IMG/VR virus record: IMGVR_UViG_3300028029_000006 | Span: 216,236 to 280,235 of that record | DNA from: a virus | Strand: one strand, 5' to 3' | DNA: 64,000 nucleotides | Shown here: piece by piece, positions 24,278 to 50,440 of the stretch | How the letters are laid out: the number at the start of each line of letters is the position of its first letter | Position numbering within the stretch: the first letter of the stretch is position 1 | Program-made: the position numbers and the translations under genes | The notes under the pieces: generated by a model | Told to the model about the DNA's origin: nothing | Databases searched by the model: none | What the model saw: the letters and a program-made list of their open reading frames with translations, nothing else

Positions 24278-25642
24278 ATGAAGAGTGTAATGGAAATAAA
24301 CTGTTTTGGCAATAAATATTGGAAATTACCAAACGGAGATTTACATAGAGACAATGATTTACCAGCTGTTGAATGGGCAGATGGAGCTAAAGAATGGTGG
24401 TTAAATGGAGATCTTCATAGAGGTAATGACTTACCAGCTATTGAATATAAAAATGGAGAAAAGTATTGGTATGTAAATGGGAAACTACATAGAACTGATG
24501 GCTCAGCATTTGAAAATGCAAGTGGTCATAAATTATGGTATCTTGAAAATGTCAGGTATTCTGAAGAAGAGTTTAATGAAAAAGTTAAAATGATTTCTAC
24601 ATATTCAACAAGTGGAAGTGGAGTGGAACATTGGAGATTACCAAATGGTTCTCTTCATAGAGAGAATAATTTACCAGCAAAAGAATACACAGATGGAACT
24701 CAAAAATGGTTTTTTAATGGTAAACTTCATAGAACAAATGGTCCAGCTATTGAGTGGGCAAATGGAGATAAATATTGGTATCTTGAAGGTATTCGTTACT
24801 CTAAAGAAGAGTACAACGAGAAGGTTAAAACGATTTCTACATGTAAAATATATGAAAATGGAGATAAACGTTGGAGATTACCAAATGGTAAACTTCATAG
24901 AGAAAATGATTTGCCAGCTGCTGAATGGTTAAATGGAAGTAAATTTTGGTATGTAAATGGTTTAAATCATAGAACAAATGGTCCAGCAGTTGAATATGCA
25001 GGTGGAGATAAATACTGGTGGCTTGAAGGTGTAAGGTATTCTGAAGAAGAGTATAATAATATTAATAAAACCAAAAACGAAAACGAAAATGATATGAAAG
25101 AAAATGAAATGGACGAACAACCAGAAAAGAAATATGAAGAAGGTGGCAGCACATCAAAACTTGACAAAGTCAAAAGTGCCGGAAGCAAAATCGGAAGCTC
25201 AATCAAGCATGGTTTTGCAGTTGGTGCAGCAACCGAAGGGGCAAATTTGGCATTCAATTTTTTCTTTGAGAAGCTTGGCCTTCCAAAAGAATTCTTAAAT
25301 GATCCAATTAAGAAAGAAATTCTTATGGGGTTGTCAGTGGCCGCTCTTTATGTAGGGTCTTCTGTTTATGAAGAACAGGTTCCTGGCATGAAAAGATTGC
25401 AAAACGGTTGTGAGTTGGTTATCGAAGGTAAAAGCAAAGATAACTTCACAGCGCTAACTTCACATGTTCTTCCAATGTTGATGCAAGCAAGTGAATTAAT
25501 GAAACCGAATTCTCTTATTAATTCATTAACTAAGCAAGAGAAGCTAAGAGTTGAAAATGTTAACGCAATTTCATCTGGTGAATTAATTAATGAAGAGGAA
25601 GGAGATTATGAACAAGCAAACAGTATTACCAGATCATCATGA
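24278..25642 (+). CDS. Beta-hairpin repeat protein fused to the conserved KHG-AxGAATEGAN C-terminal module
   Basis: Three tandem repeat blocks, then the module shared with 26539 and 48221. Confidence 0.9.
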   Translation: MKSVMEINCFGNKYWKLPNGDLHRDNDLPAVEWADGAKEWWLNGDLHRGNDLPAIEYKNGEKYWYVNGKLHRTDGSAFENASGHKLWYLENVRYSEEEFNEKVKMISTYSTSGSGVEHWRLPNGSLHRENNLPAKEYTDGTQKWFFNGKLHRTNGPAIEWANGDKYWYLEGIRYSKEEYNEKVKTISTCKIYENGDKRWRLPNGKLHRENDLPAAEWLNGSKFWYVNGLNHRTNGPAVEYAGGDKYWWLEGVRYSEEEYNNINKTKNENENDMKENEMDEQPEKKYEEGGSTSKLDKVKSAGSKIGSSIKHGFAVGAATEGANLAFNFFFEKLGLPKEFLNDPIKKEILMGLSVAALYVGSSVYEEQVPGMKRLQNGCELVIEGKSKDNFTALTSHVLPMLMQASELMKPNSLINSLTKQEKLRVENVNAISSGELINEEEGDYEQANSITRSS

Positions 25643-26060
25643 CCTGGAAGCATTTGTTTCCGCATTATATTGTGGAAAATTATATCCTAATTTAGTTCTT
25701 ATTGATACAATTGAGTTATTTATTAATAATGGATTGATAATTAAAGATGAGGATGATCCTAAAAATTATTTAATAACTGACAAAGCGAGGGAAATGTCAG
25801 CAAAGTTGTTGACAAAATTTTCTAAGATGTTAGAGTCAGATGTAGATGAAACTTTAATACTGTGGGATAAATTTGATGCTCAGGAATATTTGACTTATTC
25901 TGAAATTAAGGTTTTAATTAAAAACTCTGAAGATAGTCTTGCCTGTTTAGAGGAGTACGATTCTTATTCCAAAGAGCGTGGAGAAAATTTAAATAAACAT
26001 GGTATTATGATTAGCCAGCGTAGTTTAAAATCTATGCAGTTTCTTAGAAACAAGGATTAA
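25608..26060 (+). CDS. Hypothetical protein
   Basis: AGGAG RBS before ATG 25608. Confidence 0.7.
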   Translation: MNKQTVLPDHHDLEAFVSALYCGKLYPNLVLIDTIELFINNGLIIKDEDDPKNYLITDKAREMSAKLLTKFSKMLESDVDETLILWDKFDAQEYLTYSEIKVLIKNSEDSLACLEEYDSYSKERGENLNKHGIMISQRSLKSMQFLRNKD

Positions 26061-26062
26061 AA

Positions 26063-26311
26063 ATGAAATTAACATTAAAAGATTATAGTGACGAATCCTT
26101 TGAGTATTCTTGTTTCGCTATTGAAAAAGCGGTTCATGATGGTAAAGAATGGGAGGCATGAAGTTTAATGATTAACGCTGAAGAAATCGCTCTTCTTGAG
26201 GAAGAGCTTGAGGTAAAAGGTGGTTGGTATCCTGAATTGGATGTTAGTTTGGATCAGCTTAAGGTTCTAACTGAATTTCAAGTTGATCTATCTGACTTGA
26301 AAAGGCTTTAA
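26063..26311 (+). pseudogene. Hypothetical gene with in-frame TGA at 26159
   Basis: Coding-like acidic frame on both sides of a single TGA. Confidence 0.5.
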
Positions 26312-26538
26312 TTTAAGAAAGATAATCTTTGTTGTCCCAAAGGATGCGGTTGGTATTTCTCACTGTATTGTGATAGCTATATTTTGTTTATTAATAAACA
26401 AAATACTTACTCTAATTTTAAGCCATACAGTTTTCTTTTTTGGTTAGCTCAAGAGGCCGCGACTCTTGAAGTTAAATTTCGTGATATTATTATCTACAAA
26501 TTTTCAGAAGATTTTAAAATTAATATAAGTCACTTTCA

Positions 26539-28512
26539 ATGAGTAAAAAACCTGTAATTCCTGATAGAATCAAACTTCAATACGCAAAAGATATTATTCA
26601 ATTAGAAGATGAACGGGTTGCAGATATTATGTTAAATTTAACAATGAAAGAATCTCTTAAAGAAGAAATAGATGGAATCATTTGTGATAATTTAAATTTT
26701 AATCCTCTTGATTATGATGAAGATGAAGTTTTGATCATAACTAATAATCTTATCCAAGAGATAAAAAGCAAATTATCTTGGGTTTATGTTTCTACTCATA
26801 AAACATTATCTGAAGATTTTATTAGAGAATTTCAAGATGAAGTGAGTTGGGGTTGTATTTCTAGCTCTCAAGATTTATCTGAAGATTTTATTAAAGAATT
26901 TCAAGATAAAGTAGATTGGAAATTTATATTTTGGTGTCAAAAGTTATCAGAAGATTTCATAAGAGAGTTTAAAGATAAAGTATATTGGAATGGTTTATCT
27001 TTGAATCAAAAGTTATCAGAAGATTTTATTAGAGAATTTCAAGATAAAGTAGATTGGATATTTATATCTTATTATCAGAAATTATCAGAAGATTTTATTA
27101 GAGAGTTTAAAGATAAAGTAGATTGGGAATGTATATCTTCTCATCAAACATTATCAGAAGATTTTATTAGAGAATTTCAAGATAAAGTAGACTGGTATGA
27201 AATATCTCAATATCAAAATTTATCAGAAGATTTTATTAGAGAATTTCAAGATAAAGTAGACTGGTTAGAGATTTCATCAGAGCAAAAATTATCTAACAAA
27301 TTTCTTTTTGAATTTGTTAACGAAATTGATTGGAATCAAATTTCTGAAAAACAAAAAAATGATTTTTCCAATCATCTTAATGAAGATGATTGGCAGGGTT
27401 TACTTTGTTATAAAGTCTTGTCTGAAGATTTCAAAGAAGAGTTCAAACACAAACTTAAACCAAATGAAAAAGAATCAATGAAAAAGTCCTTAAAGGAAGA
27501 GATTAAAGATATTGCTTTGTTATATGATGACATTGCAATTGAGTTTGATGTAAATGGAGATGTTATTATATCAGAAGAGTTTTTGGCTAATTTTAGAGAT
27601 GAGGTAAATTGGAATTATATATCTTGGCATAAAAAACTATCAGAAGATTTTATTAGAGAATTTAAAGATAAAGTAATTTGGATTGATATATCTTATAATC
27701 AAAAATTATCTGAAGATTTTATTAGAGAATTTCAAGATAAAGTGAGTTGGGGTTGTATTTCTAGCTCTCAAGATTTATCTGAAGATTTTATTAGAGAATT
27801 TCAAGATAAAGTAAATTGGGGTTGTATTTCTAGCTATCAAGATTTATCTGAAGATTTTATTAGAGAATTTCAAGATAAAGTAAATTGGACTAATATATCT
27901 TTGAATCAAAAGTTATCAGAAGATTTAAAAGAAAAGTTCAAACACAAGCTAACACAAAAGAAAGAAAAAACAATGAACGAAGAAAAATCACAAATGGATT
28001 TGGTAAAACAATCTGGAAAAAAAATCACTAATTCAATCAAACATGGCGTTGCAATTGGAGCAGCAACCGAAGGAGCTAACTACGCATTCAATCTAATAGC
28101 AAAGCAACTTGGGCTATCAGAAGAAGTATTGAACAATCCAGTTCAACGAGAACTTCTTATGGGATTGGCTGTTGCCGCACTTCATGTAGGCTCAACTGTA
28201 TTTGAAGATCAAATTCCTGGTATGGATAAGGTACAATCTGGATGTGAATTAGTTATCCAAGGTAAAAGCAAAGATAACTTCTCCGCAATTGCTCAACAAT
28301 TTATTCCTATTCTTATGAATGCTGCTCAAATGATGGATCCACAAGTAGCTATGGAAAATATGATGAAGGACGCAAACAAAGTTCGAATTGCTCAAGATAA
28401 AGATAAATTGAGAGTTGAATCTAAATTGGTTAATTCTTCTGATGAGGATATTGAAGTTGAGATTGAAAATGAAACAAAGAAAAAGCAAGAGCTAAAAATG
28501 GTAGCTAAATAA
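26539..28512 (+). CDS. Trp-repeat protein fused to the conserved C-terminal module
   Basis: Two blocks of 66-bp repeats, then SIKHGVAIGAATEGAN...GCELVIQGKSKDNF. Confidence 0.92.
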   Translation: MSKKPVIPDRIKLQYAKDIIQLEDERVADIMLNLTMKESLKEEIDGIICDNLNFNPLDYDEDEVLIITNNLIQEIKSKLSWVYVSTHKTLSEDFIREFQDEVSWGCISSSQDLSEDFIKEFQDKVDWKFIFWCQKLSEDFIREFKDKVYWNGLSLNQKLSEDFIREFQDKVDWIFISYYQKLSEDFIREFKDKVDWECISSHQTLSEDFIREFQDKVDWYEISQYQNLSEDFIREFQDKVDWLEISSEQKLSNKFLFEFVNEIDWNQISEKQKNDFSNHLNEDDWQGLLCYKVLSEDFKEEFKHKLKPNEKESMKKSLKEEIKDIALLYDDIAIEFDVNGDVIISEEFLANFRDEVNWNYISWHKKLSEDFIREFKDKVIWIDISYNQKLSEDFIREFQDKVSWGCISSSQDLSEDFIREFQDKVNWGCISSYQDLSEDFIREFQDKVNWTNISLNQKLSEDLKEKFKHKLTQKKEKTMNEEKSQMDLVKQSGKKITNSIKHGVAIGAATEGANYAFNLIAKQLGLSEEVLNNPVQRELLMGLAVAALHVGSTVFEDQIPGMDKVQSGCELVIQGKSKDNFSAIAQQFIPILMNAAQMMDPQVAMENMMKDANKVRIAQDKDKLRVESKLVNSSDEDIEVEIENETKKKQELKMVAK

Positions 28513-28540
28513 ACAAAAGGTAAGATAATATCTTACCAAT

Positions 28541-28613
28541 ACCTCGGTAGCATAAAGGATAATGTAGCTGACTTCTAATCAGTTAAATGAGGGTTCGAGT
28601 CCTTCCCGAGGTG
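28541..28613 (+). tRNA. tRNA-Arg(UCU), second copy
   Basis: ACCTCGG/CCGAGGT acceptor; GCTGA-CTTCTAA-TCAGT; T-arm GAGGG-TTCGAGT-CCTTC. Confidence 0.9.
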
Positions 28614-29387
28614 CTAGTTAATATGATTAAATTAAAAAAGGAATGTTTAAGTTTTTAGAAAGACTTAAAGATAAATCTAAACCAATCACTTATAAAAATG
28701 ATGAAGAATATTATTTATCAGATTACTTAATCAGTTGTAATTTAATTAAAGATCATTCTGGTTATTGTTTCTTAACACCAGAAGGTGAAGAATTTTTGAA
28801 AAAAGGATGTCATAAAGATATTATGGATATTGAAGCAAACTTAAAAGAGCAACTAGAAATTGCAGACCGTCTTAATAATGATGTGCATTTTAATGATGAC
28901 GGGAAACGTTTAGCAGAATTAGTTGAAGCAATGAATGAATGAATGGTTTTTAATTGGAGGATTCCGTCCTCAAGGATGGAAAAATGATCGATAAGTTTAT
29001 GAATGGTTCATTTACAATTATTATGATTGTAACGATTGAAGCTTTTATCTCCGTATGTTAGGAACGTTATGAATATTGGAACTGGTTTATGTTTGTTCTT
29101 TATTTTTCTTTTAAGTATATTCTGTATTGTATTGAAATATAAAATTGATATTCTTAGAATAGACATTAATTACGCAAATAAAAAAGCAAACAATGCTATG
29201 GATTCTTTATCTAAAAAAAGAGAAATAGATTTAGAATATATTAAATCTATTGATGATTTAAATCAACACAGATTTAATAAAGCCATACAATTTATTGAAG
29301 AAGAAGTTTTAGGTAGGCGAGACAAGAATAAAAATATTAACACTGATATTGAAACTGATATTAAAAAATTAAACTAAAAAAATAAAA

Positions 29388-29591
29388 ATGATTACATTAA
29401 CAGAAGAAAAAGCAAGTGACTTAATGTCAGGGCTAGGTAACCCTGGAGTATGTTTAAGTTGTGATATGATTGATGAGTATGCAGGGTGTGAACCTGATGC
29501 TTGCAATTATGAATGTCCAGAGTGTGGAGAGAATGAATTGTTTGGTCTTTCAGAAGCGATTATTATGGATAAGGTTGAGATTACTGGATGA
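29388..29591 (+). CDS. Small Zn-finger protein
   Basis: CLSC...EPDA..YECPECG. Confidence 0.75.
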   Translation: MITLTEEKASDLMSGLGNPGVCLSCDMIDEYAGCEPDACNYECPECGENELFGLSEAIIMDKVEITG

Positions 29592-30241
29592 CATATCAAC
29601 TACAAAGACTTCATAAATTAATCACAGCTTTAAATATTAGTGACTTGGATGTTAGTGAGGAAGTAATTCATATTACATCCATGGCTTATGTTCATAATAA
29701 AACTTTTATTATATTTAATAGAATTTTTAATAATAGATGGTTCCATTTTGATGTTACGTATATTATAGATAAAAAAATGTGGTCATGCTCTTATATGCAT
29801 GATCTTGATGTTACCCTAAAGTATGCTAAAGGTAAAAATCCCGAAGAGATGTTTCGTAATCTTACTACGATACTTAGTAAACATCAATATGTTGAAAATA
29901 AAACTTGGGATTCCTATCTTGACAAACAGCCAAATAGTATTACTAAAGAATGTAGCGAATGTGTTGAGCGAATGCTTCATTCAGTTCCTACTGCCCCATG
30001 GCCAGGAGCCCAATCAAGAGTTATTGATGGCAAAACAATGCTTCAAGTCTCTTGGAGTTATAAAGAGTTAAGTTTAGATATTACTTTCATGGAAGATGAA
30101 ACTATTGAATATGAATTTTGGAAAAAGATTGATGGCAAATTAGTTCTTGATGATAGTGAAGGTGAAGAAGATGGTGGAAACTTTAATAAATACATCGATG
30201 ATCTTGTTGGGCACTTGGCTTTTATTTACCCAAGAAGTTAA
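29588..30241 (+). CDS. Hypothetical protein
   Basis: 217-aa ORF. Confidence 0.8.
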   Translation: MTYQLQRLHKLITALNISDLDVSEEVIHITSMAYVHNKTFIIFNRIFNNRWFHFDVTYIIDKKMWSCSYMHDLDVTLKYAKGKNPEEMFRNLTTILSKHQYVENKTWDSYLDKQPNSITKECSECVERMLHSVPTAPWPGAQSRVIDGKTMLQVSWSYKELSLDITFMEDETIEYEFWKKIDGKLVLDDSEGEEDGGNFNKYIDDLVGHLAFIYPRS

Positions 30242-30252
30242 GGGTTATAAAG

Positions 30253-30873
30253 ATGAATGAAGAAATAACTGATGCAGTAGTTCTTGTTAAGTGTGACCTT
30301 GTGCCTTCTAAAAAATGTTTAGAACAAAACAAAGACATTATTGATAAAATCAAATCAAGAGTATTCGCTCGTGACTCTGGTTATAGTGATGAGTGGAGAG
30401 AAGCTGTTGGACATGTAGATCGCTTAGAGAGATTGGGAAAACAAAAAATCAATCTTGAAAATGCTTTAAAACAAAATAAAGTTGATTTAAAGAAATTAAA
30501 AAATAAAAAGGCTCAAACAAAAGAAGAAGTTCTTAAGTTATGTAGAGATAAACCTCGCGAAGTCTATAAATGTTATGAAGAGGACGATAAAAAATACTGC
30601 ATGGTAAATGGGAAATATCATAGCAAAAACGATCTGCCGGCAATTGAATATGCCAATGGAGAAAAGTATTGGTTCTGGTATGGTGAGCTGCATAGGGAAA
30701 ATGGTCCCGCCTGGATCAGTTCAAATGGAAATAAAAAATGGTATGCAAATGGGAAACTTCATAGATTAGATGGACCAGCATTTGAATTAGCCAATGGAAA
30801 AAAATATTGGTTTATCGAAGGCAAAAAGTATACTGAAGAAGAGTTTAAACAACAAATAACAAAAGGAGTTTAG
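30253..30873 (+). CDS. Coiled-coil N-terminus fused to beta-hairpin repeats
   Basis: C-terminal NDLPAIEYANGEKYW... repeats. Confidence 0.85.
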   Translation: MNEEITDAVVLVKCDLVPSKKCLEQNKDIIDKIKSRVFARDSGYSDEWREAVGHVDRLERLGKQKINLENALKQNKVDLKKLKNKKAQTKEEVLKLCRDKPREVYKCYEEDDKKYCMVNGKYHSKNDLPAIEYANGEKYWFWYGELHRENGPAWISSNGNKKWYANGKLHRLDGPAFELANGKKYWFIEGKKYTEEEFKQQITKGV

Positions 30874-31052
30874 TATGAAAAGTATTTTAGGTAGATTAGT
30901 TGGTTTGGTTTTAAGTTCGGTTAAGGCAAGAATGCAATTGGTTAAGAGCATTGGGAAGAGATTCTTTTGGATTGGGTTAACTGTTGGGCTGGCTGCTGGA
31001 TTGCCTATTGGATTCTTACTGTCATGGCTTGTAGGTTTGGTAATGTAGAGTA

Positions 31053-31376
31053 ATGAATAATGATATGGAATCAACACTTACCATAGATAAATACGGTGAT
31101 AAAAGCTGGGTATTACTAAATGGAAATCTTCATAGAGATAATGGCCCAGCTTTTGAGTCTGTAGATGGTGATAAGTGTTGGTATGTTAATGGTTTACGTC
31201 ATAGAATAGATGGCCCAGCTTATGAAGATTGTGATGGGACTAAACTTTGGTACTTTGAAGGTGTTCAGTATTCTGAAAAAGAGTTTAATGAAAAAATGAA
31301 TCCTGAACAAGAATCTTGTAATGGTAAGATGGTTGAAGTTAATGGTAAGAAATATAAATTAGTTGAATTAGAATAA
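31053..31376 (+). CDS. Beta-hairpin repeat protein with shared tail
   Basis: 3' end near-identical to that of 39033. Confidence 0.88.
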   Translation: MNNDMESTLTIDKYGDKSWVLLNGNLHRDNGPAFESVDGDKCWYVNGLRHRIDGPAYEDCDGTKLWYFEGVQYSEKEFNEKMNPEQESCNGKMVEVNGKKYKLVELE

Positions 31377-31381
31377 TTATT

Positions 31382-31849: not shown

Positions 31850-31861
31850 AGGAAAATTAAA

Positions 31862-32308: not shown

Positions 32309-32309
32309 T

Positions 32310-32666: not shown

Positions 32667-32678
32667 AGGTTATATATT

Positions 32679-34427: not shown

Positions 34428-34498
34428 GTATCAATAGATTAATGGTAAATCAATTCATTCTAAACGAATTATTGCAAGTTCGATTCTTGCTTGATACA
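34428..34498 (+). tRNA. tRNA with CUA anticodon (amber-suppressor-type)
   Basis: GTATCAA/TTGATAC acceptor; GATT/AATC D-stem; ATTCA-TTCTAAA-CGAAT (one A-C mismatch); T-arm GCAAG-TTCGATT-CTTGC. CTA at 34460-34462. Confidence 0.75.
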
Positions 34499-35584
34499 CA
34501 ACGGAGAATAAAATGGCTAAAAGAAAAAAGAAACGTAAAAAGAGAATCAAAGTAAGGAATTCTTTTTTTAGTGTAATGATGAGACGTTATCCTAGAAAAC
34601 AGATAATGAAAAATAGAAACAAGAAACGTTCTGATAATAAAAAGAATCATTGGATGAAAGATTGGGAATGATTTATAGAACACAATATAAACCCGCAGTT
34701 AATAAAAACAAATCTTTAAAAGTAAAGCTTCATAAGTTATGGTGCCACAAATTAAATATTGGTAAATGGCGTGGTGAAGTTGAAGGTTGGATTGATGAAG
34801 GTATTGTAATGGCTGGTTATCGATGTCATAAATGTGATGAGCTTGAAGGTATTCATGAAGCTCATAGAAGATGGCCAAGACCTGGCAGTTTAGGCTCTTG
34901 GTATTCTAAGTGTGTTAGTACTAATTGGGGAAGGAGTTTAGGAATTGACTAATTATTTAATTTTTATATGGAGTACTTTTTGTGGTATAGGTTTATTTGG
35001 TGCAATCTATATTGCTTATGAAGCTACTACATATTAATACAAATGTAGTATATGAAGGTTGTTTAATTAGCCATGGGATAGGAGATCATAGCGATGGTGC
35101 ATGTGATGCTTTGTGTTATGGAACTGCTAATTACAGTGGAATCATTTGTAAGTGTAAAAAACAGATGAGCGGCAATTGTACAGAAGAAATGTTGAATGAA
35201 AGTAAAAAGTAAATGGAACGTAACTGTACTGAAATTAGATCTGTAGCAGGTGAAAGTAAATATGCAGAATTCGATCCAGAGTTTGGATTCTGGGGTGTGT
35301 TCGGTGAGGACTCGGGGTTCTGTTTTGGTCAGTTTAACACAGAAGAAGAAGCAGAAGCTCATTGCTAGCAATTAAAAAGAAAGAAAATAATTATACGTGG
35401 ATTAAAAAGTGAAGACCTTGTTGGGAAAACTATTAAAAAAATTAATGTTGACTGCGTCAATGTTGTTACGTTAACATTTGAAGACGATTCCAAATTGGAA
35501 GTTTACGCAGAAGTAACTCGTTTACCTAATTGTGTTGGGGAATTTGGAATCATTGTAACACCTGAATAATAAGAAAGATAAAAT

Positions 35585-36205
35585 ATGATTGAATATAATG
35601 TTGACTCGAAACTAATCTCAACTAGAGATGCAGACACTTTAACTTGCTTATTGACTCTCCCAAGAGTTATTACAGTTAATAAGTTTGATGAAGACTCAGC
35701 CAGAGATTTTCGTAATGATTTTGCTGAGGCTCTTAACACGAAACAAGATGTTGTACCAATCGTAATTGATTCTTATGGAGAACAAGTTCATTCTCTTTTC
35801 AGTATGATTGATACAATTAATACATCACCAGTTCCTGTTGCGACAATTGTAACTGGAAAAGCGATGAGTTGTGGGGCTGTGTTAATGACTTGTGGAACTG
35901 ATGGTATGCGTTTTGTTAGTAAACATTCTACTGTAATGATTCATGATGTTTCTGCCGGAACTTGGGGTAAAGTGGAAGATATGAAGCTTTCAGTTAAAGA
36001 GTTTGCTCGTCTTGGTAAGTTGTTGATTGGAATGATCGAGAAGAATATTGGTAAGTCTCCAGGTTATATTAATGATATTTTGGAGAAGAAAAATAGAGGA
36101 GACTGGTATCTAACTCCAAAGCAATGTGTAAAACATAACTTGGCCAACAAAGTTGGGATGCCTAAGTTGACAGTTTCGATTAAGACTGAGATGTCTTTTG
36201 TTTAA
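35585..36205 (+). CDS. clpP: ClpP-family protease subunit
   Basis: IDSYG, GKAMSCG (Ser), VMIHD (His) and DWYL (Asp). Confidence 0.88.
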   Translation: MIEYNVDSKLISTRDADTLTCLLTLPRVITVNKFDEDSARDFRNDFAEALNTKQDVVPIVIDSYGEQVHSLFSMIDTINTSPVPVATIVTGKAMSCGAVLMTCGTDGMRFVSKHSTVMIHDVSAGTWGKVEDMKLSVKEFARLGKLLIGMIEKNIGKSPGYINDILEKKNRGDWYLTPKQCVKHNLANKVGMPKLTVSIKTEMSFV

Positions 36206-43162: not shown

Positions 43163-43172
43163 ATTAAATAAC

Positions 43173-43218: not shown

Positions 43219-43239
43219 CTACGCATAAAGAAAATAATA

Positions 43240-43671
43240 ATGATTTTTTATTTTGAAGAAGAAGGTTGCGCAACTGAAATTGAAGCTGATAACGAAAAGA
43301 AAGCTATCACTAAGTACTTCAGTGATGTTTCAATTGAAGATTATATCCCTGATGCAAACAAAACTATCCATGTAGAATTTTTAGTTTCATCTAAACAGCT
43401 TAATTATGGAGATTATTGCCCATCTAATTATCACAGATTAGATCCTATTGCTGACAGTTGTACTGGTGATGGTCACAAGTGGACTAGCCCTTATGAAATT
43501 GTTGGTGGGCTAAAAGAGAACCCTGGAGTTACTGGTAATGGAGGCGGACTAATCATCAGAGAAATTTGCAAATATTGTCAGCTTGAAAAAGTTACTAACA
43601 CTTGGGATACAAATCCAGAAACTGGCCAAAAAGTTGAGACCATTAAGTATTTAAGAGGTGATGATGGGTGA
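43240..43671 (+). CDS. Hypothetical protein
   Basis: Likely start MIFYFE; GGLKENPGV.GNGGG motif. Confidence 0.75.
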   Translation: MIFYFEEEGCATEIEADNEKKAITKYFSDVSIEDYIPDANKTIHVEFLVSSKQLNYGDYCPSNYHRLDPIADSCTGDGHKWTSPYEIVGGLKENPGVTGNGGGLIIREICKYCQLEKVTNTWDTNPETGQKVETIKYLRGDDG

Positions 43672-44035
43672 TTTTTTAGATGATGATCCAGAGATTGCAC
43701 GTAGGATTTTGTTCTATGTTGTATTGATTGGTTTTATTAGTGTAGGTATTTTCTTCGTATCAGGCTGGTTACGTCCTGTTGGTCTTGCAATGAAACGAAA
43801 AACTGACGTACAAAGCCATCAATATGTTGAAGCAAGGAAAACTGAGCTTTCAACATTTGTTGAAACGTATGATGAATTAGATGTTGATATTGCTAAGTAT
43901 GAAGACTTGGGTAAAGATAAGATCGTTTTAGGTTTGAAGGCTCAAAAAAAATCTTTGAAGAAGAAGATTCGAGCAACGTTAATTAAAATTCCAGTAAGTG
44001 ATCGTCCCGCAGGGATGGAAAGGTTTCTTAGATGA
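43658..44035 (+). CDS. Membrane-anchored coiled-coil protein
   Basis: TM helix then coiled coil; coupled to the next gene. Confidence 0.8.
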   Translation: MMMGDFLDDDPEIARRILFYVVLIGFISVGIFFVSGWLRPVGLAMKRKTDVQSHQYVEARKTELSTFVETYDELDVDIAKYEDLGKDKIVLGLKAQKKSLKKKIRATLIKIPVSDRPAGMERFLR

Positions 44036-44595
44036 TTAAGAATAATATTTGTTTGATTGCAATTTTAGGATTGAGCGTTGTTGGTTGTATGGACTCTGCT
44101 GAAGATAAAGACAGAGAAGCCGTTGCGGATCAACAAAAAACATATCAAGTAGCTCAACCAATTCCTAAGTTTGATCATAGTTCAGAGCGAGCAGTAGCAA
44201 TTCAGCTTTATATTGCTAGGAATAACAAGGTAGCTACACATACAGTGTGGCGCTCTGATACTGGAATTGTAGAAGGTGATTGTCCATCTGTTGGTTATCC
44301 TCTTCCCTATGATACCAGTTTAACTAATCCACTTAAAGTTGCTCGTTCAAGTATGGAACATTCCAAAGTGCTTGAGCAAGCAGAACCTAATGGTCTTTAT
44401 TCTTCTAAGAATAGCACTGCTACTTGGGTTCGATGTGTAACTTTGGTTGTTGGTAAAGATGTTGAAGCTCCAATTTATGTTGAGAGTAAAGTGACAGCTT
44501 ATCCATTCCCAGTTGAGGTTGATTACAAGACTAATAGAGTCAAACCTGTTGAAGGAGCAGTGCCAACAGTTACTATTAAAAACACTAGTAAGTAA
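44032..44595 (+). CDS. Putative lipoprotein
   Basis: LSVVG-C lipobox. Confidence 0.8.
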   Translation: MIKNNICLIAILGLSVVGCMDSAEDKDREAVADQQKTYQVAQPIPKFDHSSERAVAIQLYIARNNKVATHTVWRSDTGIVEGDCPSVGYPLPYDTSLTNPLKVARSSMEHSKVLEQAEPNGLYSSKNSTATWVRCVTLVVGKDVEAPIYVESKVTAYPFPVEVDYKTNRVKPVEGAVPTVTIKNTSK

Positions 44596-44904
44596 TATTT
44601 AACAATTTAATTAATGCTTAATGATGAGATAAATGATGTTGCACTTGCTTTTACTTTTTGGGCAGTTATATTTTTACTTTATAAATTTCTTTGAGAAAGA
44701 TTCTGATGAATAAAAGAATAAAATTTAAACGTAATGATAATATATTAACATTCGCAAGTGCTAATTATTTAAATGGCAAAGGTTTAATTATTGAAGAGAA
44801 GCTTCATAAAGGATTCTCAACAGATGTTAAAACTAGATTTGGTCTAACTATCAATGATGCTCGTGAACTTCGAGATTTCCTTAATGTATTCTTAGGAGAA
44901 TAAT

Positions 44905-45321
44905 ATGAGTGATAATAAAAAGCAACATTGCTATAACTGTGAAGATGGTTATTATAAAGAGATGACAGGGCCAGGTAGAAAATACTGTTTATTGAAGGGC
45001 GTTTATTTAGAAACACCTTCACATATAACAACTATTGAATGCGAATGCGGGTCTTCTCTTTCCACTGTTGAAGAGTGTGAAGAGATTTGTGATATCTTAT
45101 ATAAAGAATTAGCTTTAATGATTAAAAATTATGTTAAAGATATTATAATTAAACATAATTCTCCTCAAGAGGAAATTGAAAGAGGGTTAAGAGTTAACCC
45201 ATTACTGTTTCCTAAAATGATTTCTGGAGAAAAACTTCCTACAGGTCAAATTATTGGCATGTTGGATTTGTTTTTAAATGTTCCAGGAGCTTTTGAGCAC
45301 TTAAGGTTTAATAATGAATAA
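44905..45321 (+). CDS. MqsA-like Zn-finger/HTH protein
   Basis: CYNC...ECEC, then an HTH-like region ending ISGEKLPT. Confidence 0.65.
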   Translation: MSDNKKQHCYNCEDGYYKEMTGPGRKYCLLKGVYLETPSHITTIECECGSSLSTVEECEEICDILYKELALMIKNYVKDIIIKHNSPQEEIERGLRVNPLLFPKMISGEKLPTGQIIGMLDLFLNVPGAFEHLRFNNE

Positions 45322-45781
45322 TACATTGGAATTTAAACGTGATGATAATATATTAACAGTGGTTAGTTCCGAAGATTTAGGAAGGTGTTGGGATTGTGGG
45401 GGTTATTATAAGTTAGCAACTGGTTTAGGTAGGAGATATGAAATGCTACGTGGTGTTTCCTTAGAGATCCCTGAAGACTTACCTACTATTGAGTGTGATA
45501 ATTGTGATGGCGGGCTAAGCGATTCTCTTTTCACAGGAGCAGTTCAAGTTGCGTTGGAGAAAAAGTTAACTTTAATAGTTAGAAAATTTGTTAGTGATAT
45601 TATAGAGAGACATAATACTACTCAATATGAATTTGAAAACGCATTAAAAATTAATCGTTCTTACTTTTCTAAGATTATGGCTGGCATGGAACAACCAACA
45701 AGTATTATCATTAGCGTGTTGGATATGATTTTAAATGTTCCTGATGTTTTTGTTCGGTTAAGGCTTAAAAATGAGTACTGA
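45314..45781 (+). CDS. MqsA-like Zn-finger/HTH protein, paralog of 44905
   Basis: CWDC...CDNC; TQYEFENALKINRSYFSKIMAGMEQPT. Confidence 0.7.
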   Translation: MNNTLEFKRDDNILTVVSSEDLGRCWDCGGYYKLATGLGRRYEMLRGVSLEIPEDLPTIECDNCDGGLSDSLFTGAVQVALEKKLTLIVRKFVSDIIERHNTTQYEFENALKINRSYFSKIMAGMEQPTSIIISVLDMILNVPDVFVRLRLKNEY

Positions 45782-46251
45782 TAAATTAGATAAGGCGGTA
45801 GATAAATTAGCACAGTATCTACCAAAACTTAGTGATGATGTTGTAACCAACACTCAAGTCATCTTAGCAGGAGTTGATGAACTCAAAAGATTAAGAGCAG
45901 AAGGCGAGTTGCTTAAGAAAGCCTTAAAAGATATTGGTTATGCTTGGTCAACCATTAATTCAAAAAATCATGAAGTAAGTTTGATTTTGGATCAGTTTGT
46001 TTCTAAACCTAAGTACTGGGTTGATTTTTTAGAAAAAGATGATGAATAATGAAATGAATAAAAAATATTTTCTTAACCACAATAAATTAAATGAAAATAA
46101 CTAAAGAAGAGCTTGAGGATGCTAGGGATTTGTTAGTTAAATATGCTAAAGACTGGGACAGATCTTTAGAAGAATCTATTTTAGTTTTTGCAGAACTAAT
46201 TAATCAATTAACAAATATAGATATTCCTAAAGATAAATTAAATTAAAGCAA

Positions 46252-46641
46252 ATGAATATAGATAAAGAAATTAATTGGAGAGAATTTTATTCTAGGTGTT
46301 GGAATGTTTTAATTAAGCATGCTGGCGTTAACAACAGTATGAAAAATCATTTTATTTATTGCATGTTGATAGAAGAACATCCCACAAATGAATATAGATT
46401 TGGTGGTGTGTTTGGTATGGGTGGTAAATTTTGGCGACATAATAGTAAGATCTATATCAATTACTATCATGAAGACCGCTCATCTAAATTAGATAAGGTT
46501 CAAAGTTTAATTAATAATTATCTTTTAGAAATTCAGGATGAGTTCTTGGGTAGTAATGTGGGATTATTTGGTCCGCCTATTAGGCATAATAAAGAAATAG
46601 AGTTTAATAAAAGGAATGATTTTCCTTTAGAAAGAAGTTAA
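46252..46641 (+). CDS. Hypothetical protein
   Basis: EYRFGGVFGMGGKFW motif. Confidence 0.75.
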   Translation: MNIDKEINWREFYSRCWNVLIKHAGVNNSMKNHFIYCMLIEEHPTNEYRFGGVFGMGGKFWRHNSKIYINYYHEDRSSKLDKVQSLINNYLLEIQDEFLGSNVGLFGPPIRHNKEIEFNKRNDFPLERS

Positions 46642-46778
46642 TGGAAAAATTATTAAGTTGGATACCGTCGTTTGTTTTTTCTACACTTGTGGTAATTTGC
46701 GTAGCTTTACATAATCCAAATTTTGCTATTTCATTTTTTACTGTACCAGTAATTACTGGTTTGTTTGCAAAGGTTTAA

Positions 46779-47135
46779 ATGTCATCAGTATATATAAATC
46801 CACGTCCGTTACTTCAAGTTGAAAAAACTGGCGCCCAAGGTCTTGGCAACTGCTATCGAGCGACTTATGTTAAGATAACGAGTCTAAAAAAGATTAGCGA
46901 ATCTAAAATCAAAGAGATGTACAGTCTTGGATTACTGCATGGTGGTGGTCAAGAATTTTACATTCATTCTCAGTGTGACGGTAAAGAAGAGGCAACTGGA
47001 CATGATGAAGTGTTCAGTATTGATTCCGAAACTGGGGAGCGAGCTATTAATAAATATAGTGGAGAAGTTAATAAAGCTTTATTATACCCTTATTATGAAT
47101 ATAATGTTGAGTACAGAGTTGATTCAGGCGGTTAA
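46779..47135 (+). CDS. Hypothetical protein
   Basis: 118-aa ORF. Confidence 0.75.
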   Translation: MSSVYINPRPLLQVEKTGAQGLGNCYRATYVKITSLKKISESKIKEMYSLGLLHGGGQEFYIHSQCDGKEEATGHDEVFSIDSETGERAINKYSGEVNKALLYPYYEYNVEYRVDSGG

Positions 47136-47146
47136 AGGAAAATGAA

Positions 47147-47575
47147 ATGAAGAGATTAAGTTTGTTATTGCTGTTAATTCCAGCATGTGCTATTGGTGAG
47201 ATTGAAGAGGTTTTTGAAAAAGTAGATGGAGCTATGAAGAATCTAGATGCTTCTTCATGTATCCTTGTCTGCAATGAAGGTGATGGCACTGAAGCTGGTG
47301 GCGCTAAAGAATGTAGAGATGAGTGTGATGTTTACGGTGATCAATGTATGGTTGAGGTTAATCTTTGTGAAGAACAAGGGTTAGCTATCTGTGAACAAGC
47401 ATCATCTGATAAGGCGTTTGATGATTGTGTTGACGTAATCAAGAAGGATTGTGATCAAAGATGTGCTGATTTGGAAGAGATGTGTGAGGAAACATGTTTG
47501 GATGTAGCTCTTCAATGTGTGTCTGCTTGTGTTAAGGAAATGGAGGATGAGTTTAAGGATATTAATTTAAAATGA
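47147..47575 (+). CDS. Cys-rich acidic lipoprotein
   Basis: LIPA-C lipobox; repeated CxxxC helices. Confidence 0.78.
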   Translation: MKRLSLLLLLIPACAIGEIEEVFEKVDGAMKNLDASSCILVCNEGDGTEAGGAKECRDECDVYGDQCMVEVNLCEEQGLAICEQASSDKAFDDCVDVIKKDCDQRCADLEEMCEETCLDVALQCVSACVKEMEDEFKDINLK

Positions 47576-47940
47576 GTGAAAATAATAATGGGTATTTGTT
47601 TTTTGGTATTAGTGATTACGATAATTGCGGTGATTATTTTAATATAATTAAAAAATTAAAACTACCGATAACGAATCCAAAGGATGATTATGATTATGGA
47701 ATATTTTTAATAAATAAATCCTTACCTAAAGGATTAAAATGTGGTTATCATAATAGATATGATAGACCTATGCCAATGATTTATATTCTAAAAACCTATT
47801 TAGATACTTATGAAACATATCCAAAAAGATTTAAGGAGTTACCTAATGTTAACCTGAAGTTAATTAAAATGCTGGAAGTTTACGCACAAAAACTTGGTTG
47901 GAAAAATCCAAGTTGGATGATTGCTAGTTGTATCGATTGA
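47572..47940 (+). CDS. Hypothetical protein
   Basis: ATGA-coupled ORF. Confidence 0.7.
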   Translation: MSENNNGYLFFGISDYDNCGDYFNIIKKLKLPITNPKDDYDYGIFLINKSLPKGLKCGYHNRYDRPMPMIYILKTYLDTYETYPKRFKELPNVNLKLIKMLEVYAQKLGWKNPSWMIASCID

Positions 47941-48200
47941 TTAATTGATATTAAATAATTGTTAGTTTTATTGAAAGAGTGAGTTATAGTTATGAGTGAT
48001 TTTGAACGAGATGATAATACAACTGTTGACCTTTTAAGTGAGGTTGGGGTTAATGTTTATGAAGAGGACATTGCGGATTGGACTGATAAGCAAGTTCAAG
48101 AGGCTGAAAATTGGGCTTCTGCAATGTATGCGTCTACATTTAGTGGAGTAGAAGTTCCTCCCAGACCTGAGTGGATTGAAATAACGGCTGCTTAAATTAA

Positions 48201-48222
48201 ATGCCGGGTGCGAGCCCGGCAT
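48201..48222 (+). terminator. GC-rich hairpin, possible intrinsic terminator
   Basis: ATGCCGGG-TGCGAG-CCCGGCAT followed by T-rich sequence. Confidence 0.5.
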
Positions 48223-50440
48223 GATTTGTTTATTTATTATGATTGATTTAATTAAAAAGATTGCTAAAGACCATGATTGCATAGTTCGTTTTGAAAACGG
48301 CAAATTAACTGATTACTCTAGAAAAGAATTTGTATCTAAGATAAATTGGTTGAATGTAGCTTGTAATAAAGAAATATTAACTGAAGAGTTCATTAAAGAA
48401 TTTCAAAACAAAATAAGTTGGTGGGCAGTATCCTCTTATCAAGTCTTATCAGAAGATTTTATTAGAGAATTTCAAGATAAAGTAGATTGGGATATCATAT
48501 CTTTTTCTCAAGACTTATCAGAATCCTTTATTGTAGAATTTAAATATGAATTAGATTGGGAATGTATATCTCAATTTCAAAAACTATCTGAAGATTTCAT
48601 TATAAATTTTGCCAACAAAATATATTGGAAAAAGTTAGGTGAAAATTATAATATCTCTGAAGAATGTAAAAGAAAATTCAAAAAAGCTATCAGACTTGCT
48701 ATCAATCAGGAGAAGCGCATGAAAAATTCTTTAATAGAAGAAATAGTTACCATTGCTAATGAGATAAATGTGGGTATATTTTTCGATTCTAATAATAAAA
48801 TTGAAAGTGATTCATTGAGTACATTTATCAATCATTTAGATTGGCAAAAAACGTGTGAAGAAAAAGTTTTATCTGAAGATTTTATTAGAGAATTTCAAAA
48901 TGAATTAGATTGGGATGCCGTATCTTCTTCTCAAAAATTATCTGAAAGTTTCTTTGAAGAATTCAAAGATAAAATGAATTGGGAGTATATATCTAGATCC
49001 CAGAAATTATCAGAAGGATTTATAAAAAAATTTAAAGATAAGCTAAATTGGACTATAATTAATAGCAACCAAATATTATCTGAGAATTTCATAAGAGAGT
49101 TTCAGGATGAAGTTAATTGGTCCACTATATCTAGTTATCAAAAACTATCAGAAGAATTCATTAAAGAATTTAAAAATAAAGTAAATTGGGTTAATATATC
49201 TTTTAAACAAAAATTATCTGAGGATTTTATGAGAGAATTTCAAGATGAAATTGATTTTACTATGCTACATAGTATAATTTCAGATGATTTTCATCAAGAA
49301 ATGACTAATAAAATTAGTCAAGTTGATAGCAAACCTGAAGGTAAATCTATGGATGAAGAAATGATATTATCAAATAATATAGAAGCAGTTCGTAAAAAAT
49401 ATGGGCCTGAAGTTTTGCTTTTAATAAAAGAATCAATTGAAGATTTACCAGAGTGTGATACTTCAGCAGAATACAAAGAAGAATATCTGTTAATTTATGA
49501 TACAATTGATACTTTAGCAAAAAAATCTACGATCTCATATAAAGAATCAAAAGAAGTTTTTAGTTTATTAAATAAACTAAATAATGATCCCAATTCAAAT
49601 TGGATGGTAACACTTCAAGATTTTGAAGATTGGGAAAATTCAAAATCTAAACCAACTGTAGAGGATTCTTCACAAGGAGCTGAAGAAGAAGAAGAATTAG
49701 TAGGACCAGTTGTAAAAGAGAGCCGTGTTAAATACGGCGAATTTATTTTTAAAAAACCAATAATCTTAAAGGAACTTAAGCAGCATTCTGATTCCTTACA
49801 GACTGAAAAAGAAGTTGAAGCTGAAGCTGAACCAGTTGCAGAAAAGAATTTCGATACTAGAAACATTAAAGGTTGGGTGGATATGACTAAGCCATTTTGT
49901 AATCCTGAATGGCTTAATACCACAAAACCAATGACAAATAATGAACACAAAATACACTTAGCGAAAAAATCTGGAAACATAATTAAAGACTGCGTCAAAC
50001 ATGGAGTAGCAATTGGAGCTGCTACAGAAGGCGCTAACTATGTTTTCAAGTTACTTTCAAAACAATTGAACCTCTCAGAAGAAGCTCTTAACAACCCAGT
50101 TAAACGAGAACTACTTATGGGACTAACAGTTGCCGCACTTCATATGGGATCAACAATCTTTAAAGATAAAATTCCCAATATGGATAAGGTACAAACCGGT
50201 TGTGAATTAGTTATCCAAGGTAAAAGCAAAGATAACTTCTCCGCAATGGTTCAACATTTAGTCCCTGTTCTTACAAACGCGGTTCAAATGATGGATCCCA
50301 AGTCTGCCTTTGAGAAAATGTTTAAAGAGCAAGAGAAATTAAGAATTGCAAATCTTAAAGATATGCAACTAACTAATGAAGCAGAAGAGATTGAAGTTTA
50401 TGATGAATACAATAATCGTCTTTTAGAAAGAAACGCATAA
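48221..50440 (+). CDS. Trp-repeat protein fused to the conserved C-terminal module
   Basis: Two repeat blocks, an acidic linker, then VKHGVAIGAATEGAN...GCELVIQGKSKDNF. True start probably 48239. Confidence 0.92.
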   Translation: MICLFIMIDLIKKIAKDHDCIVRFENGKLTDYSRKEFVSKINWLNVACNKEILTEEFIKEFQNKISWWAVSSYQVLSEDFIREFQDKVDWDIISFSQDLSESFIVEFKYELDWECISQFQKLSEDFIINFANKIYWKKLGENYNISEECKRKFKKAIRLAINQEKRMKNSLIEEIVTIANEINVGIFFDSNNKIESDSLSTFINHLDWQKTCEEKVLSEDFIREFQNELDWDAVSSSQKLSESFFEEFKDKMNWEYISRSQKLSEGFIKKFKDKLNWTIINSNQILSENFIREFQDEVNWSTISSYQKLSEEFIKEFKNKVNWVNISFKQKLSEDFMREFQDEIDFTMLHSIISDDFHQEMTNKISQVDSKPEGKSMDEEMILSNNIEAVRKKYGPEVLLLIKESIEDLPECDTSAEYKEEYLLIYDTIDTLAKKSTISYKESKEVFSLLNKLNNDPNSNWMVTLQDFEDWENSKSKPTVEDSSQGAEEEEELVGPVVKESRVKYGEFIFKKPIILKELKQHSDSLQTEKEVEAEAEPVAEKNFDTRNIKGWVDMTKPFCNPEWLNTTKPMTNNEHKIHLAKKSGNIIKDCVKHGVAIGAATEGANYVFKLLSKQLNLSEEALNNPVKRELLMGLTVAALHMGSTIFKDKIPNMDKVQTGCELVIQGKSKDNFSAMVQHLVPVLTNAVQMMDPKSAFEKMFKEQEKLRIANLKDMQLTNEAEEIEVYDEYNNRLLERNA

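What the first reader, a model, noticed from the sequence alone, without database searches (positions are those of the whole stretch)
24278..50440. One conserved hydrophobic module fused to two unrelated variable repeat families: candidate sensor-effector system
Seen: a module of roughly 120 aa (KHGxAxGAATEGAN...ExLMGLxVAALxxGS...GCELVIxGKSKDNF) ends 24278 (beta repeats), 26539 and 48221 (Trp repeats). It has Gly/Ala-rich hydrophobic helices. An in-frame Met precedes it each time; 27973 has an AAGAAAG RBS. The two Trp-repeat fusions are each followed by a hairpin and tRNA-Arg. Inference: interchangeable binders on a common membrane or oligomerising effector, possibly also made alone, for anti-defence, exclusion or virion delivery.
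Basis: partly seen in the sequence, partly recalled or inferred. Interest (0 to 1): 0.78.

Follow-up and report, generated by a model that had tools for sequence, protein, structure and literature searches.

The report
Shared dimerising tail domain on huge-phage repeat proteins
An uncultured 409-kb phage attaches one previously undescribed helical end-domain, predicted to pair with itself, to five proteins built from two different repeat types; the domain occurs only in a few huge phages and its role is unknown.

Summary
The genome (409,147 bp, IMG/VR virus record) has five copies of the module, three of them in the window. Four follow 23-aa Trp repeats and one follows 24-aa beta-type repeats.

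The module is a new family. It gave 31 clusters among 1.84 billion representatives and no hit in Pfam, PHROGs, NCBIfam, PADLOC or PDB sequences. It was also absent from 50,697 deposited phages, IMG/VR and 185,579 species genomes.

It is always C-terminal and is usually followed by a net-acidic tail. N-terminal partners include beta repeats, a recurring small domain and several unknown domains; some genes are stand-alone. Three other phage contigs (one 344 kb) hold two copies each.

With 33 sequences AlphaFold2 gives a confident all-helical model (pLDDT 91) with no significant structural neighbour. Hydropathy is below transmembrane level. A two-copy model passes its controls (ipSAE 0.46 against 0.00), with the Gly/Ala-rich hydrophobic helix at a symmetric interface.

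Best reading: a soluble self-associating handle that makes repeat binders bivalent and may dock them on a shared partner. The membrane reading and the internal-start reading are not supported. Function is unproven. The scan noted this module before on an overlapping window of the same genome.

The parts
24278..25642 (+). Gene 1 (454 aa): beta-type 24-aa repeats, linker, C-terminal module, acidic tail
   Evidence: ORF list and translation.
24331..25053 (+). Beta-type repeat array of gene 1 (72-bp unit, 240-bp super-unit; motif W/Y-x-NG-x-LHR-x-(D/N)-x-PA)
   Evidence: Tandem Repeats Finder. Pfam gives only a sub-threshold DUF6745 match of 16 bits, and no MORN model hits.
25151..25612 (+). Module copy 1 (residues about 292-445); it has Tyr where most family members have the conserved His
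   Evidence: hmmsearch envelope and alignments.
26539..28512 (+). Gene 2 (657 aa): two head-plus-Trp-repeat units, then the module and tail
   Evidence: The repeats match PHROG 3532 at E 3.4e-146. The internal unit head resembles the N-termini of stand-alone paralogues.
26793..27264 (+). Trp-repeat block 1 of gene 2 (69-bp unit, 6.8 copies)
27569..27926 (+). Trp-repeat block 2 of gene 2 (69-bp unit, 5.2 copies)
27979..28476 (+). Module copy 2 (residues about 481-646); residues 483-625 were the sequence modelled
   Evidence: AF2 model at pLDDT 91. Two-copy model.
28541..28614 (+). tRNA-Arg (TCT), 29 nt after the stop of gene 2 and preceded by a short hairpin
   Evidence: ARAGORN and the sequence itself.
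48221..50440 (+). Gene 3 (739 aa; the real start is probably Met7 at 48239): two Trp-repeat units, a non-repeat spacer of about 200 aa, then the module and tail
   Evidence: From Met7 the N-terminus matches the paralogue head, and the ATG at 48221 abuts a GC-rich hairpin.
48869..49256 (+). Trp-repeat block of gene 3 (69-bp unit)
49937..50407 (+). Module copy 3 (residues about 573-729)
50485..50560 (+). tRNA-Arg (CCT), 45 nt after the stop of gene 3
   Evidence: It is not a sequence duplicate of the tRNA at 28541.
24005..24262 (+). 85-aa hydrophobic ORF ending in TAG, in frame with gene 1 and 15 nt upstream (side observation)

Best explanation
The module is a new all-helical C-terminal domain of about 125 residues, usually followed by a disordered, net-acidic tail. 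So far it has been found only in huge-phage-like metagenomic contigs.

It most likely works as a soluble self-associating handle. Its Gly/Ala-rich hydrophobic helix and the small-residue face of helix 1 pack against the same surfaces of a second copy. Whatever is fused upstream therefore becomes at least bivalent. Because the five paralogues keep the same core, mixed pairs (Trp array with beta array) are possible.

The N-terminal parts come from two gene families that are greatly expanded in this genome, and these parts are the variable target-binding side. The strongly conserved GK.KD stretch lies mostly outside the predicted interface. Together with the acidic tail, it is the best candidate site for a common partner.

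Shown: five copies; the family and its rarity; constant C-terminal position; repeated domain shuffling; a confident helical model.
Predicted, not shown: dimerisation.
Inferred: bivalent or mixed binders acting in the infected cell, and a shared docking partner.
For: - Five copies, all C-terminal.
- The family has 31 clusters in 1.84e9 representatives. The module is C-terminal in all of them, partners are diverse, and some genes are stand-alone.
- AF2 on 33 sequences gives pLDDT 91 and pTM 0.66 with helices at 3-42, 46-50, 52-72, 80-116 and 119-142.
- The two-copy model scores ipSAE 0.46 against a best control of 0.00. The three runs agree in at least 94% of contacts and partner pLDDT is at least 79. 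In the tool's calibration the mark was reached by 20 of 30 proteins solved as pairs of one chain and by 1 of 23 solved as single chains. Those counts hold only roughly here, because my own alignment was used.
- The lowest-error contacts are 61:61, 64:64 and 68:68, all in the hydrophobic helix.
- Hydropathy is 1.1-1.3 in this genome's copies, below transmembrane level.
- The five modules of this genome form one clade (99/97). Other beta-repeat fusions form a separate clade (100/99), and stand-alone forms are scattered through the tree.
- Three other phage contigs each carry two module genes with different N-termini within 1-8 kb. One of these contigs is 344 kb long.
- About 35 ORFs carry Trp repeats and about 22 carry beta-type repeats genome-wide. 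Only five of these ORFs have the module.
- In the ESM Atlas the Trp-repeat protein resembles viral solenoid clusters. Some of these carry F-box, DarT or DUF7666 domains, which fits a target-recognition role for the repeats.
- The tail after the module is net acidic wherever one is present in the alignment (26 of 33 rows; the other rows end early or have almost no tail).
Against: - Dimerisation rests on a single structure-prediction test using my own alignment.
- Predicted interface columns are no more conserved than the other columns (0.43 against 0.44, Mann-Whitney p 0.44). Conservation therefore does not single out that surface.
- No partner, ligand or target is known.
- H67 and C87 are each conserved in 28 of 33 sequences. 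This hints at a metal or catalytic site that a plain dimerisation handle does not explain.
- No expression, localisation or virion data exist.
- The host is unknown.
Confidence: 0.45

Rival explanations
1. Virion-incorporation handle. The module and its acidic tail dock diverse cargo domains onto the scaffold, capsid interior or another virion part. The cargo is then packaged and delivered into the next host, as with T4 internal proteins or the phiKZ inner-body paralogues.
For: - One shared handle on diverse cargo and several paralogues per genome fit this pattern.
- Helical, acidic segments are typical of scaffold-like proteins (established knowledge; not tested here).
- The family is so far confined to very large phages.
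Against: - None of the five genes lies next to the sheath-like gene, the only virion gene located here, at about genome 88.7 kb. They sit at 42, 240, 243, 264 and 316 kb, among small unknown ORFs, tRNAs, DNA methylases and nucleotide-metabolism genes.
- In the homologue contigs the module genes also lie among small unknown ORFs.
- No structural match to any virion protein.
- No protease-site evidence was obtained.
Confidence: 0.15
2. Adaptor or substrate-receptor handle. The module and tail tether repeat-bound host proteins to a protease or to a protein-modification machine. It would be the phage counterpart of dimeric SspB with its ClpX-binding tail, or of poxvirus ankyrin-PRANC and giant-virus F-box repeat proteins.
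For: - The architecture of binder, then predicted dimer, then flexible tail with a short motif matches SspB-type adaptors (my recollection of that family; not tested).
- An R-[VIF]-[EDA] motif, such as KLRVE, follows the module in 17 of 33 members.
- A ClpP-like protease gene lies between the module genes at 35585-36205.
- Related Trp-type solenoids carry F-box domains in giant viruses, in 32% of one Atlas cluster.
Against: - No F-box, PRANC or BTB model hit.
- No ClpX zinc-finger in the phage.
- The tail motif is absent from 16 of 33 members, including the 1110-aa paralogue of this genome.
- No ClpP gene appears among the called genes of the flanks of the homologue contigs.
Confidence: 0.12
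3. Membrane-active effector. The module is a latent membrane-inserting or pore-forming helical domain, like colicin or Bcl-2 domains. A buried hydrophobic helix would insert after a trigger, and the repeats would act as the sensor.
For: - The domain is helical with one Gly/Ala-rich hydrophobic helix shielded by amphipathic helices.
- Weak structural rows include channels, pyocins, Bak and holins.
Against: - Hydropathy is 1.1-1.3 in the five copies of this genome, below transmembrane level. Only one hydrophobic helix of 17 residues is present, and it has a conserved His in the middle.
- The structural rows are at noise level: Foldseek E at or above 0.1, and best Z of 6.0, where helical models typically reach far more by chance.
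- The same helix is used as the dimer core in the two-copy model.
Confidence: 0.08
4. The module is also made on its own from an internal start inside the fusion genes, giving free module that competes or co-assembles with the fused forms.
For: - Stand-alone module genes exist in relatives (P0010, P0013, P0015 and others). One sits 1 kb from a fused copy on contig L008.
- In gene 2 a Met aligns with the start of stand-alone P0013.
- The RBS-like AAGAAAG lies 8 nt before the ATG at 27973. The genome's start regions are enriched in such purine-rich words.
Against: - At the aligned position the five copies read M, L, I, I and L, and one copy has no linker Met at all.
- The motif also occurs inside the module on Lys-Lys-Glu codons.
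- There is no excess of promoter-like sites. Eighteen were found against 25 expected.
- By my own rough estimate (about 2.5% Met in a 25-residue linker), a Met in 4 of 5 linkers is close to chance.
Confidence: 0.07

Closest known systems
Poxvirus ankyrin-repeat/PRANC (F-box-like) proteins and giant-virus F-box or BTB repeat proteins
   Same: These are multigene families in large viruses with variable N-terminal repeat arrays as binders and one small conserved helical C-terminal domain as the common output. Atlas clusters structurally similar to the Trp-repeat protein include F-box fusions in Nucleocytoviricota.
   Different: No sequence or structural similarity of the module to F-box, PRANC or BTB was found. 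This is a phage rather than a eukaryotic virus, and no ubiquitin-ligase partner is known. The module is larger (about 125 aa) and is predicted to self-pair.
SspB-type dimeric protease adaptors (E. coli SspB with its C-terminal ClpX-binding tail)
   Same: The layout is similar: a substrate-binding part, dimerisation, a flexible linker and a short C-terminal docking motif. Many members carry an Arg-hydrophobic motif (KLRVE-like) in the tail.
   Different: There is no sequence or fold match. Here the binder and the dimeriser are separate domains. The motif is not universal and is followed by an acidic stretch. No ClpX is encoded by the phage. The SspB tail motif is my recollection; a literature search for it found nothing in the held library.
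PHROG 3532 / 22019 / 11920 Trp-repeat proteins and DUF1699/DUF7666-type viral solenoids
   Same: The N-terminal 23-aa repeats of four of the five proteins belong here (E 3.4e-146 and 6.6e-83). The Atlas model of a stand-alone paralogue aligns at TM 0.79-0.80 to such clusters. Two other paralogues of this genome end in a DUF7666-like domain instead of the module.
   Different: None of these families includes the C-terminal module. PHROGs has no model for it.
MORN / MORN-variant repeat proteins
   Same: Gene 1 and homologues P0017 and P0018 carry 23-24-aa Gly- and aromatic-rich repeats of beta-hairpin type. By eye the pattern resembles MORN-variant repeats.
   Different: No MORN model hits in Pfam or NCBIfam. 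Only DUF6745 matches, at 16 bits (below its cut-off) in gene 1 and 38.5 bits in P0018. Membership is therefore not established.

Membership tests
Any curated protein family for the module (Pfam, PHROGs, NCBIfam, PADLOC, PDB sequences) | Significant profile match over the module | tested here: not met
   Pfam on the three proteins and on all 33 module sequences gave nothing. PHROGs gave nothing. NCBIfam gave nothing meaningful. PADLOC gave nothing. The best PDB profile hit had E 0.24.
Integral membrane or membrane-anchor domain | At least one hydrophobic stretch of transmembrane length and hydropathy (19-residue Kyte-Doolittle mean of about 1.6 or more) | tested here: not met
   The maximum is 1.1-1.3 in the five copies of this genome. 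The stretch has 17 hydrophobic residues with a conserved His. A few distant homologues reach 1.6-1.95.
Colicin/Bcl-2-type pore-forming helical domains | A bundle of amphipathic helices around a central hydrophobic helical hairpin; structural similarity to solved members | tested here: inconclusive
   Only one hydrophobic helix is present. Foldseek and VIA rows (Bcl-xL, Bak, pyocin S2/S5) are at noise level, with E at or above 3 and Z 4.7-5.3 at rmsd 4-12 A.
Homodimerisation domain (functional class, not a family) | Self-association through a defined symmetric interface | tested here: met
   This is a prediction only. ipSAE is 0.46 against a best control of 0.00, with at least 94% contact agreement and pLDDT at least 79. 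The mark was reached by 20 of 30 proteins solved as pairs of one chain and by 1 of 23 solved as single chains, and these counts hold only roughly with my own alignment. It has not been measured.
PHROG 3532 Trp-repeat proteins (N-terminal arrays of genes 2 and 3) | Significant profile match | tested here: met
   E 3.4e-146 and 6.6e-83. The 69-bp tandem units are confirmed.
MORN / MORN_2 repeats (N-terminal array of gene 1) | Match to the Pfam MORN models | tested here: not met
   No MORN model appears at E up to 1. Only DUF6745 matches, at 16.2 bits against a cut-off of 27. NCBIfam gave nothing.
F-box / PRANC / BTB adaptor domains | Profile match to the adaptor domain; binding to Skp1 or cullin | tested here: not met
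   No such Pfam hit in any family member. Binding cannot be tested with these tools.
SspB-like protease adaptor | Dimer; flexible tail ending in a ClpX N-domain-binding motif; delivery of substrates to ClpXP | tested here: inconclusive
   A dimer is predicted. The R-[VIF]-[EDA] motif occurs in 17 of 33 tails. A ClpP-like gene is in the window but the phage has no ClpX zinc-finger. Binding was not tested.

The most novel reading that the evidence does not exclude
The module and its tail are a phage-invented substrate-receptor handle. Each paralogue captures a different host protein with its hypervariable repeat array. Through the shared dimeric module and tail motif, it hands that protein to one common machine. 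Candidates are the phage ClpP-like protease encoded between the module genes, or the ubiquitin-like conjugation system noted elsewhere in this genome. This would be a bacteriophage analogue of the poxvirus ANK-PRANC and eukaryotic F-box systems.
Probability: 0.1. Interest if true: 0.85.

Novelty: new variant of a known kind. Interest (0 to 1): 0.5.

Why it matters
Huge phages carry large expansions of repeat proteins whose roles are unknown. A shared, shuffled, self-pairing C-terminal handle would be the first organising principle for part of that dark matter. It would say which repeat proteins act as pairs or mixed pairs, and it points to a common partner that could be fished out with a single bait.

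The domain is also a clean new fold-family candidate. The model is confident, no structural neighbour was found, and the family is small enough to characterise fully. If the adaptor reading held, it would show that phages evolved their own receptor-plus-handle logic for redirecting host proteins. As it stands, the finding is a well-defined new domain family with a predicted but unproven mode of action.

Tried and rejected
- DNA search of the region against deposited phages found no match.
- tblastn of three divergent modules against 50,697 phage records found no match.
- IMG/VR pattern scans with two alignments confirmed no relative. The first attempt with the 33-sequence alignment had no usable conserved stretch.
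- The JGI metagenome scan returned one short contig only.
- The scan of 185,579 species genomes returned none.
- The word-indexed homologue search with the profile returned only 5 proteins and added nothing.
- AF2 on the 5-sequence alignment was poor (pLDDT 59) and was discarded.
- Foldseek against PDB and BFVD, VIA-align against 48,161 chains and the ESM Atlas shape search gave nothing above noise. The Atlas feature search for the module scored 0.77, which is a lead at best.
- The genome search by relatives or by locus handles is not available for these records.
- Two literature searches found nothing relevant.
- An alternative genetic code was considered because of the tRNA with a CUA anticodon. 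The standard code already gives dense coding, and TAG stops are not enriched for in-frame continuation: 5 of 65, against 32 of 348 for TAA.
- A tRNA-Arg linkage by block duplication was rejected, because the tRNAs are not alike.
- Interface-versus-surface conservation showed no difference and is uninformative.
- An intersubunit Cys/His metal site was considered. It could not be tested without model coordinates. His and Cys are not lost together, and gene 1 has Tyr at the His position.
- A Peptidase_S8 gene lies near the module genes in two other contigs but is absent from this genome, so it was dropped as a partner.

Full report
**Setting**

The window is positions 216236-280235 of a single 409,147-bp contig. 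The contig is an IMG/VR virus record that CheckV estimates to be 96% complete. It has about 32% G+C, 21 tRNA genes and dense coding under the standard code. Earlier notes of this scan call it an uncultured huge phage.

**Observation**

tblastn with the module, and then a profile HMM against all six-frame ORFs, find exactly five copies in the genome.
- Three copies are in the window.
- One is at genome 42460-45792. It is a 1110-aa Trp-repeat protein that lies just upstream of a complete N6/N4 DNA methylase gene, follows an ORF with a partial methylase match, and is near a LAGLIDADG endonuclease gene.
- One is at genome 316525-317415. Its Trp-repeat gene is split by a 1-nt frameshift at a GGAAAA run.

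The five modules share 65% mean column identity and 52 invariant columns. The repeats are true tandem arrays with 69-bp units (23 aa) in the Trp genes and a 72/240-bp unit in gene 1.

The tRNA-Arg genes after genes 2 and 3 are real. They are unrelated in sequence, and no tRNA follows the other three module genes. I treat the linkage as unexplained and probably incidental.

**What the module is**

A profile of the five copies, run against 1.84 billion representative proteins, finds only 31 clusters at E up to 1e-3. One of these is a spurious low-complexity repeat protein. In every true hit the module is at the C-terminus.

N-terminal partners fall into several kinds:
- the same kind of beta repeat as gene 1 (P0017, P0018);
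- a small N-terminal domain of about 80 aa that recurs in seven or more clusters;
- several unrelated unknown domains;
- nothing at all, that is, stand-alone genes of 153-192 aa.

No curated library knows the module. This covers Pfam, PHROGs, NCBIfam, PADLOC and PDB sequences. It is also absent from 50,697 deposited phage genomes, from IMG/VR apart from this record, and from 185,579 species genomes by pattern scan.

Where context could be fetched, homologues lie in phage-like contigs of 14, 58 and 344 kb, among co-directional small unknown ORFs. Those three contigs each hold two module genes with different N-termini within 1-8 kb. Multiple copies per genome is therefore a family trait.

**Structure**

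With five sequences AlphaFold2 failed (pLDDT 59). With the 33-sequence alignment it gives a confident all-helical model of pLDDT 91 and pTM 0.66. It has two long helices (3-42 and 80-116), the hydrophobic helix (52-72) and a final helix (119-142). Nothing in PDB, BFVD, a 48,161-chain exhaustive alignment or the ESM Atlas rises above the noise expected for helical models.

That is below transmembrane level, and the helix carries a His conserved in 28 of 33 sequences.

After the core comes a predicted-disordered tail. It is net acidic wherever a tail is present in the alignment (26 of 33 rows), often with alternating acidic and hydrophobic residues. An R-[VIF]-[EDA] motif occurs in 17 of 33.

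**Self-association**

Two copies of the module, modelled with the 33-row alignment, gave ipSAE 0.46, 0.45 and 0.48 in three runs. The best of three controls scored 0.00. Contact agreement was at least 94% and partner pLDDT at least 79. In the tool's calibration this mark was reached by 20 of 30 proteins solved as pairs of one chain and by 1 of 23 solved as single chains. Those counts hold only roughly here, because my own alignment was used.

The interface is symmetric and large, at about 180 contacts. The lowest-error contacts are 61:61, 64:64 and 68:68, all in the hydrophobic helix, plus the Gly/Ala face of helix 1. This explains the Gly/Ala-rich hydrophobic character without invoking a membrane.

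It is a prediction, not a measurement. Predicted interface columns are no more conserved than the rest. The most conserved polar stretch, GK.KD after GCELVI, lies mostly outside the interface. That makes it a candidate site for something else.

**Evolution**

A maximum-likelihood tree of 31 modules places the five copies of this genome in one clade (99/97). The beta-repeat copy is sister to the four Trp copies. The other beta-repeat fusions (P0017, P0018) form a distant clade (100/99). Stand-alone forms are scattered among fused ones; for example P0013 is sister to a fused form at 96/80.

The module has therefore been duplicated within lineages and recombined with partners repeatedly. The module fusions here are not recent stop-codon losses, since the modules are only 49-72% identical to each other.

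Both repeat types are greatly expanded in this genome. By pattern count, about 35 ORFs carry Trp repeats and about 22 carry the beta-type repeats. Stand-alone Trp paralogues begin with a head such as MKELIK.IAK..., followed by GKLT..S...F. The same head recurs inside genes 2 and 3 and inside the 1110-aa protein, which are thus concatenations of two, two and about five whole units. Two Trp paralogues end in a DUF7666-like domain instead of the module.

The Atlas model of a stand-alone paralogue (pLDDT 0.84) aligns at TM 0.79-0.80 to viral solenoid clusters. Some similar clusters (TM 0.54-0.80) carry DUF7666, F-box or DarT. This supports the idea that the repeats are the recognition part and the C-terminal domains are the output part.

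**Internal starts**

The linker Met is present in 4 of 5 copies. At the position that aligns with the start of stand-alone relatives, the five copies read M, L, I, I and L. The AAGAAAG motif does match the purine-rich words seen before starts in this genome. However, it recurs inside the module on Lys-Lys-Glu codons, and promoter-like sites are not in excess. I find no support for separate expression, although stand-alone genes in relatives show that the module can work alone.

**Mechanism**

I commit to a soluble, self-pairing handle that makes the upstream binder arrays bivalent, and possibly mixed. The conserved exposed patch and the acidic tail would serve a shared partner. Confidence is 0.45.

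Three rivals remain: a virion-incorporation handle (0.15), an adaptor to a protease or modification machine (0.12) and a latent membrane-active domain (0.08). The genes are not near the sheath-like gene, the only virion gene I located, at about 88.7 kb. A ClpP-like gene lies between them at 35585-36205, but the phage has no ClpX zinc-finger.

**Verdict**

Interest is moderate, because the function remains open but is now directly testable.

Noticed in passing
window 34428-34499; 24260-24262: A tRNA with a CUA (amber) anticodon is encoded in the window. The TAG that ends the 85-aa hydrophobic ORF 24005-24262 is in frame with the start of gene 1, 15 nt downstream with no other stop. Read-through would therefore put a membrane-like N-terminus on the beta-repeat/module protein. 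Genome-wide, TAG stops are not enriched for in-frame continuation (5 of 65, against 32 of 348 for TAA). Another of the five TAG cases precedes the Trp/DUF7666 gene at genome 181314.
   Followed up: partly
L002:4095-5416 (genome 316094-317415): The fifth module gene is split into two overlapping ORFs by a 1-nt shift at a GGAAAA run inside a repeat. This could be an assembly error, a pseudogene or a real frameshift.
   Followed up: partly
whole genome; in the window e.g. 19694-20233, 54170-54892, 60797-63324 (Trp) and 15488-15955, 30202-30873, 50507-51280 (beta-type): Both repeat families are massively expanded: about 35 ORFs have Trp repeats and about 22 have the beta-type repeats, by pattern count. 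One beta-type gene directly follows gene 3 and its tRNA-Arg.
   Followed up: partly
L011 (genome 181314-182654) and genome 209914-211113 (minus strand): Two Trp-repeat paralogues end in a DUF7666-like domain (E 3.4e-5, profile positions 1-89 of 95) instead of the module. The repeat arrays therefore have at least two alternative C-terminal domains.
   Followed up: partly
window 35585-36205: A ClpP-like protease gene (Pfam CLP_protease, E 8.8e-24) lies between the module genes. No ClpX zinc-finger was found in the genome, and only one weak AAA_2 match at genome 292893-293165.
   Followed up: partly
L001:234-6422 (genome 40233-46421): The 1110-aa module protein is followed by a complete N6/N4 DNA methylase gene. 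It is preceded by an ORF with an HTH and a partial methylase match, and a LAGLIDADG endonuclease gene lies further upstream.
   Followed up: no
L007:12982-14772 and L008:8552-10357: In two other phage contigs a Peptidase_S8 gene of about 600 aa lies 2-6 kb downstream of the module genes. This genome has no S8 match.
   Followed up: partly
window 48203-48239: The first ATG of gene 3 (48221) directly abuts a GC-rich hairpin. The N-terminus matches the paralogue head only from Met7, so 48239 is the more likely start.
   Followed up: partly
module positions 67 and 87 (gene 2 residues 549 and 569): A His in the middle of the hydrophobic helix and a Cys in GCELVI are each conserved in 28 of 33 family members, and both fall in the predicted interface. 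They could form a metal or redox site. Gene 1 has Tyr at the His position.
   Followed up: partly
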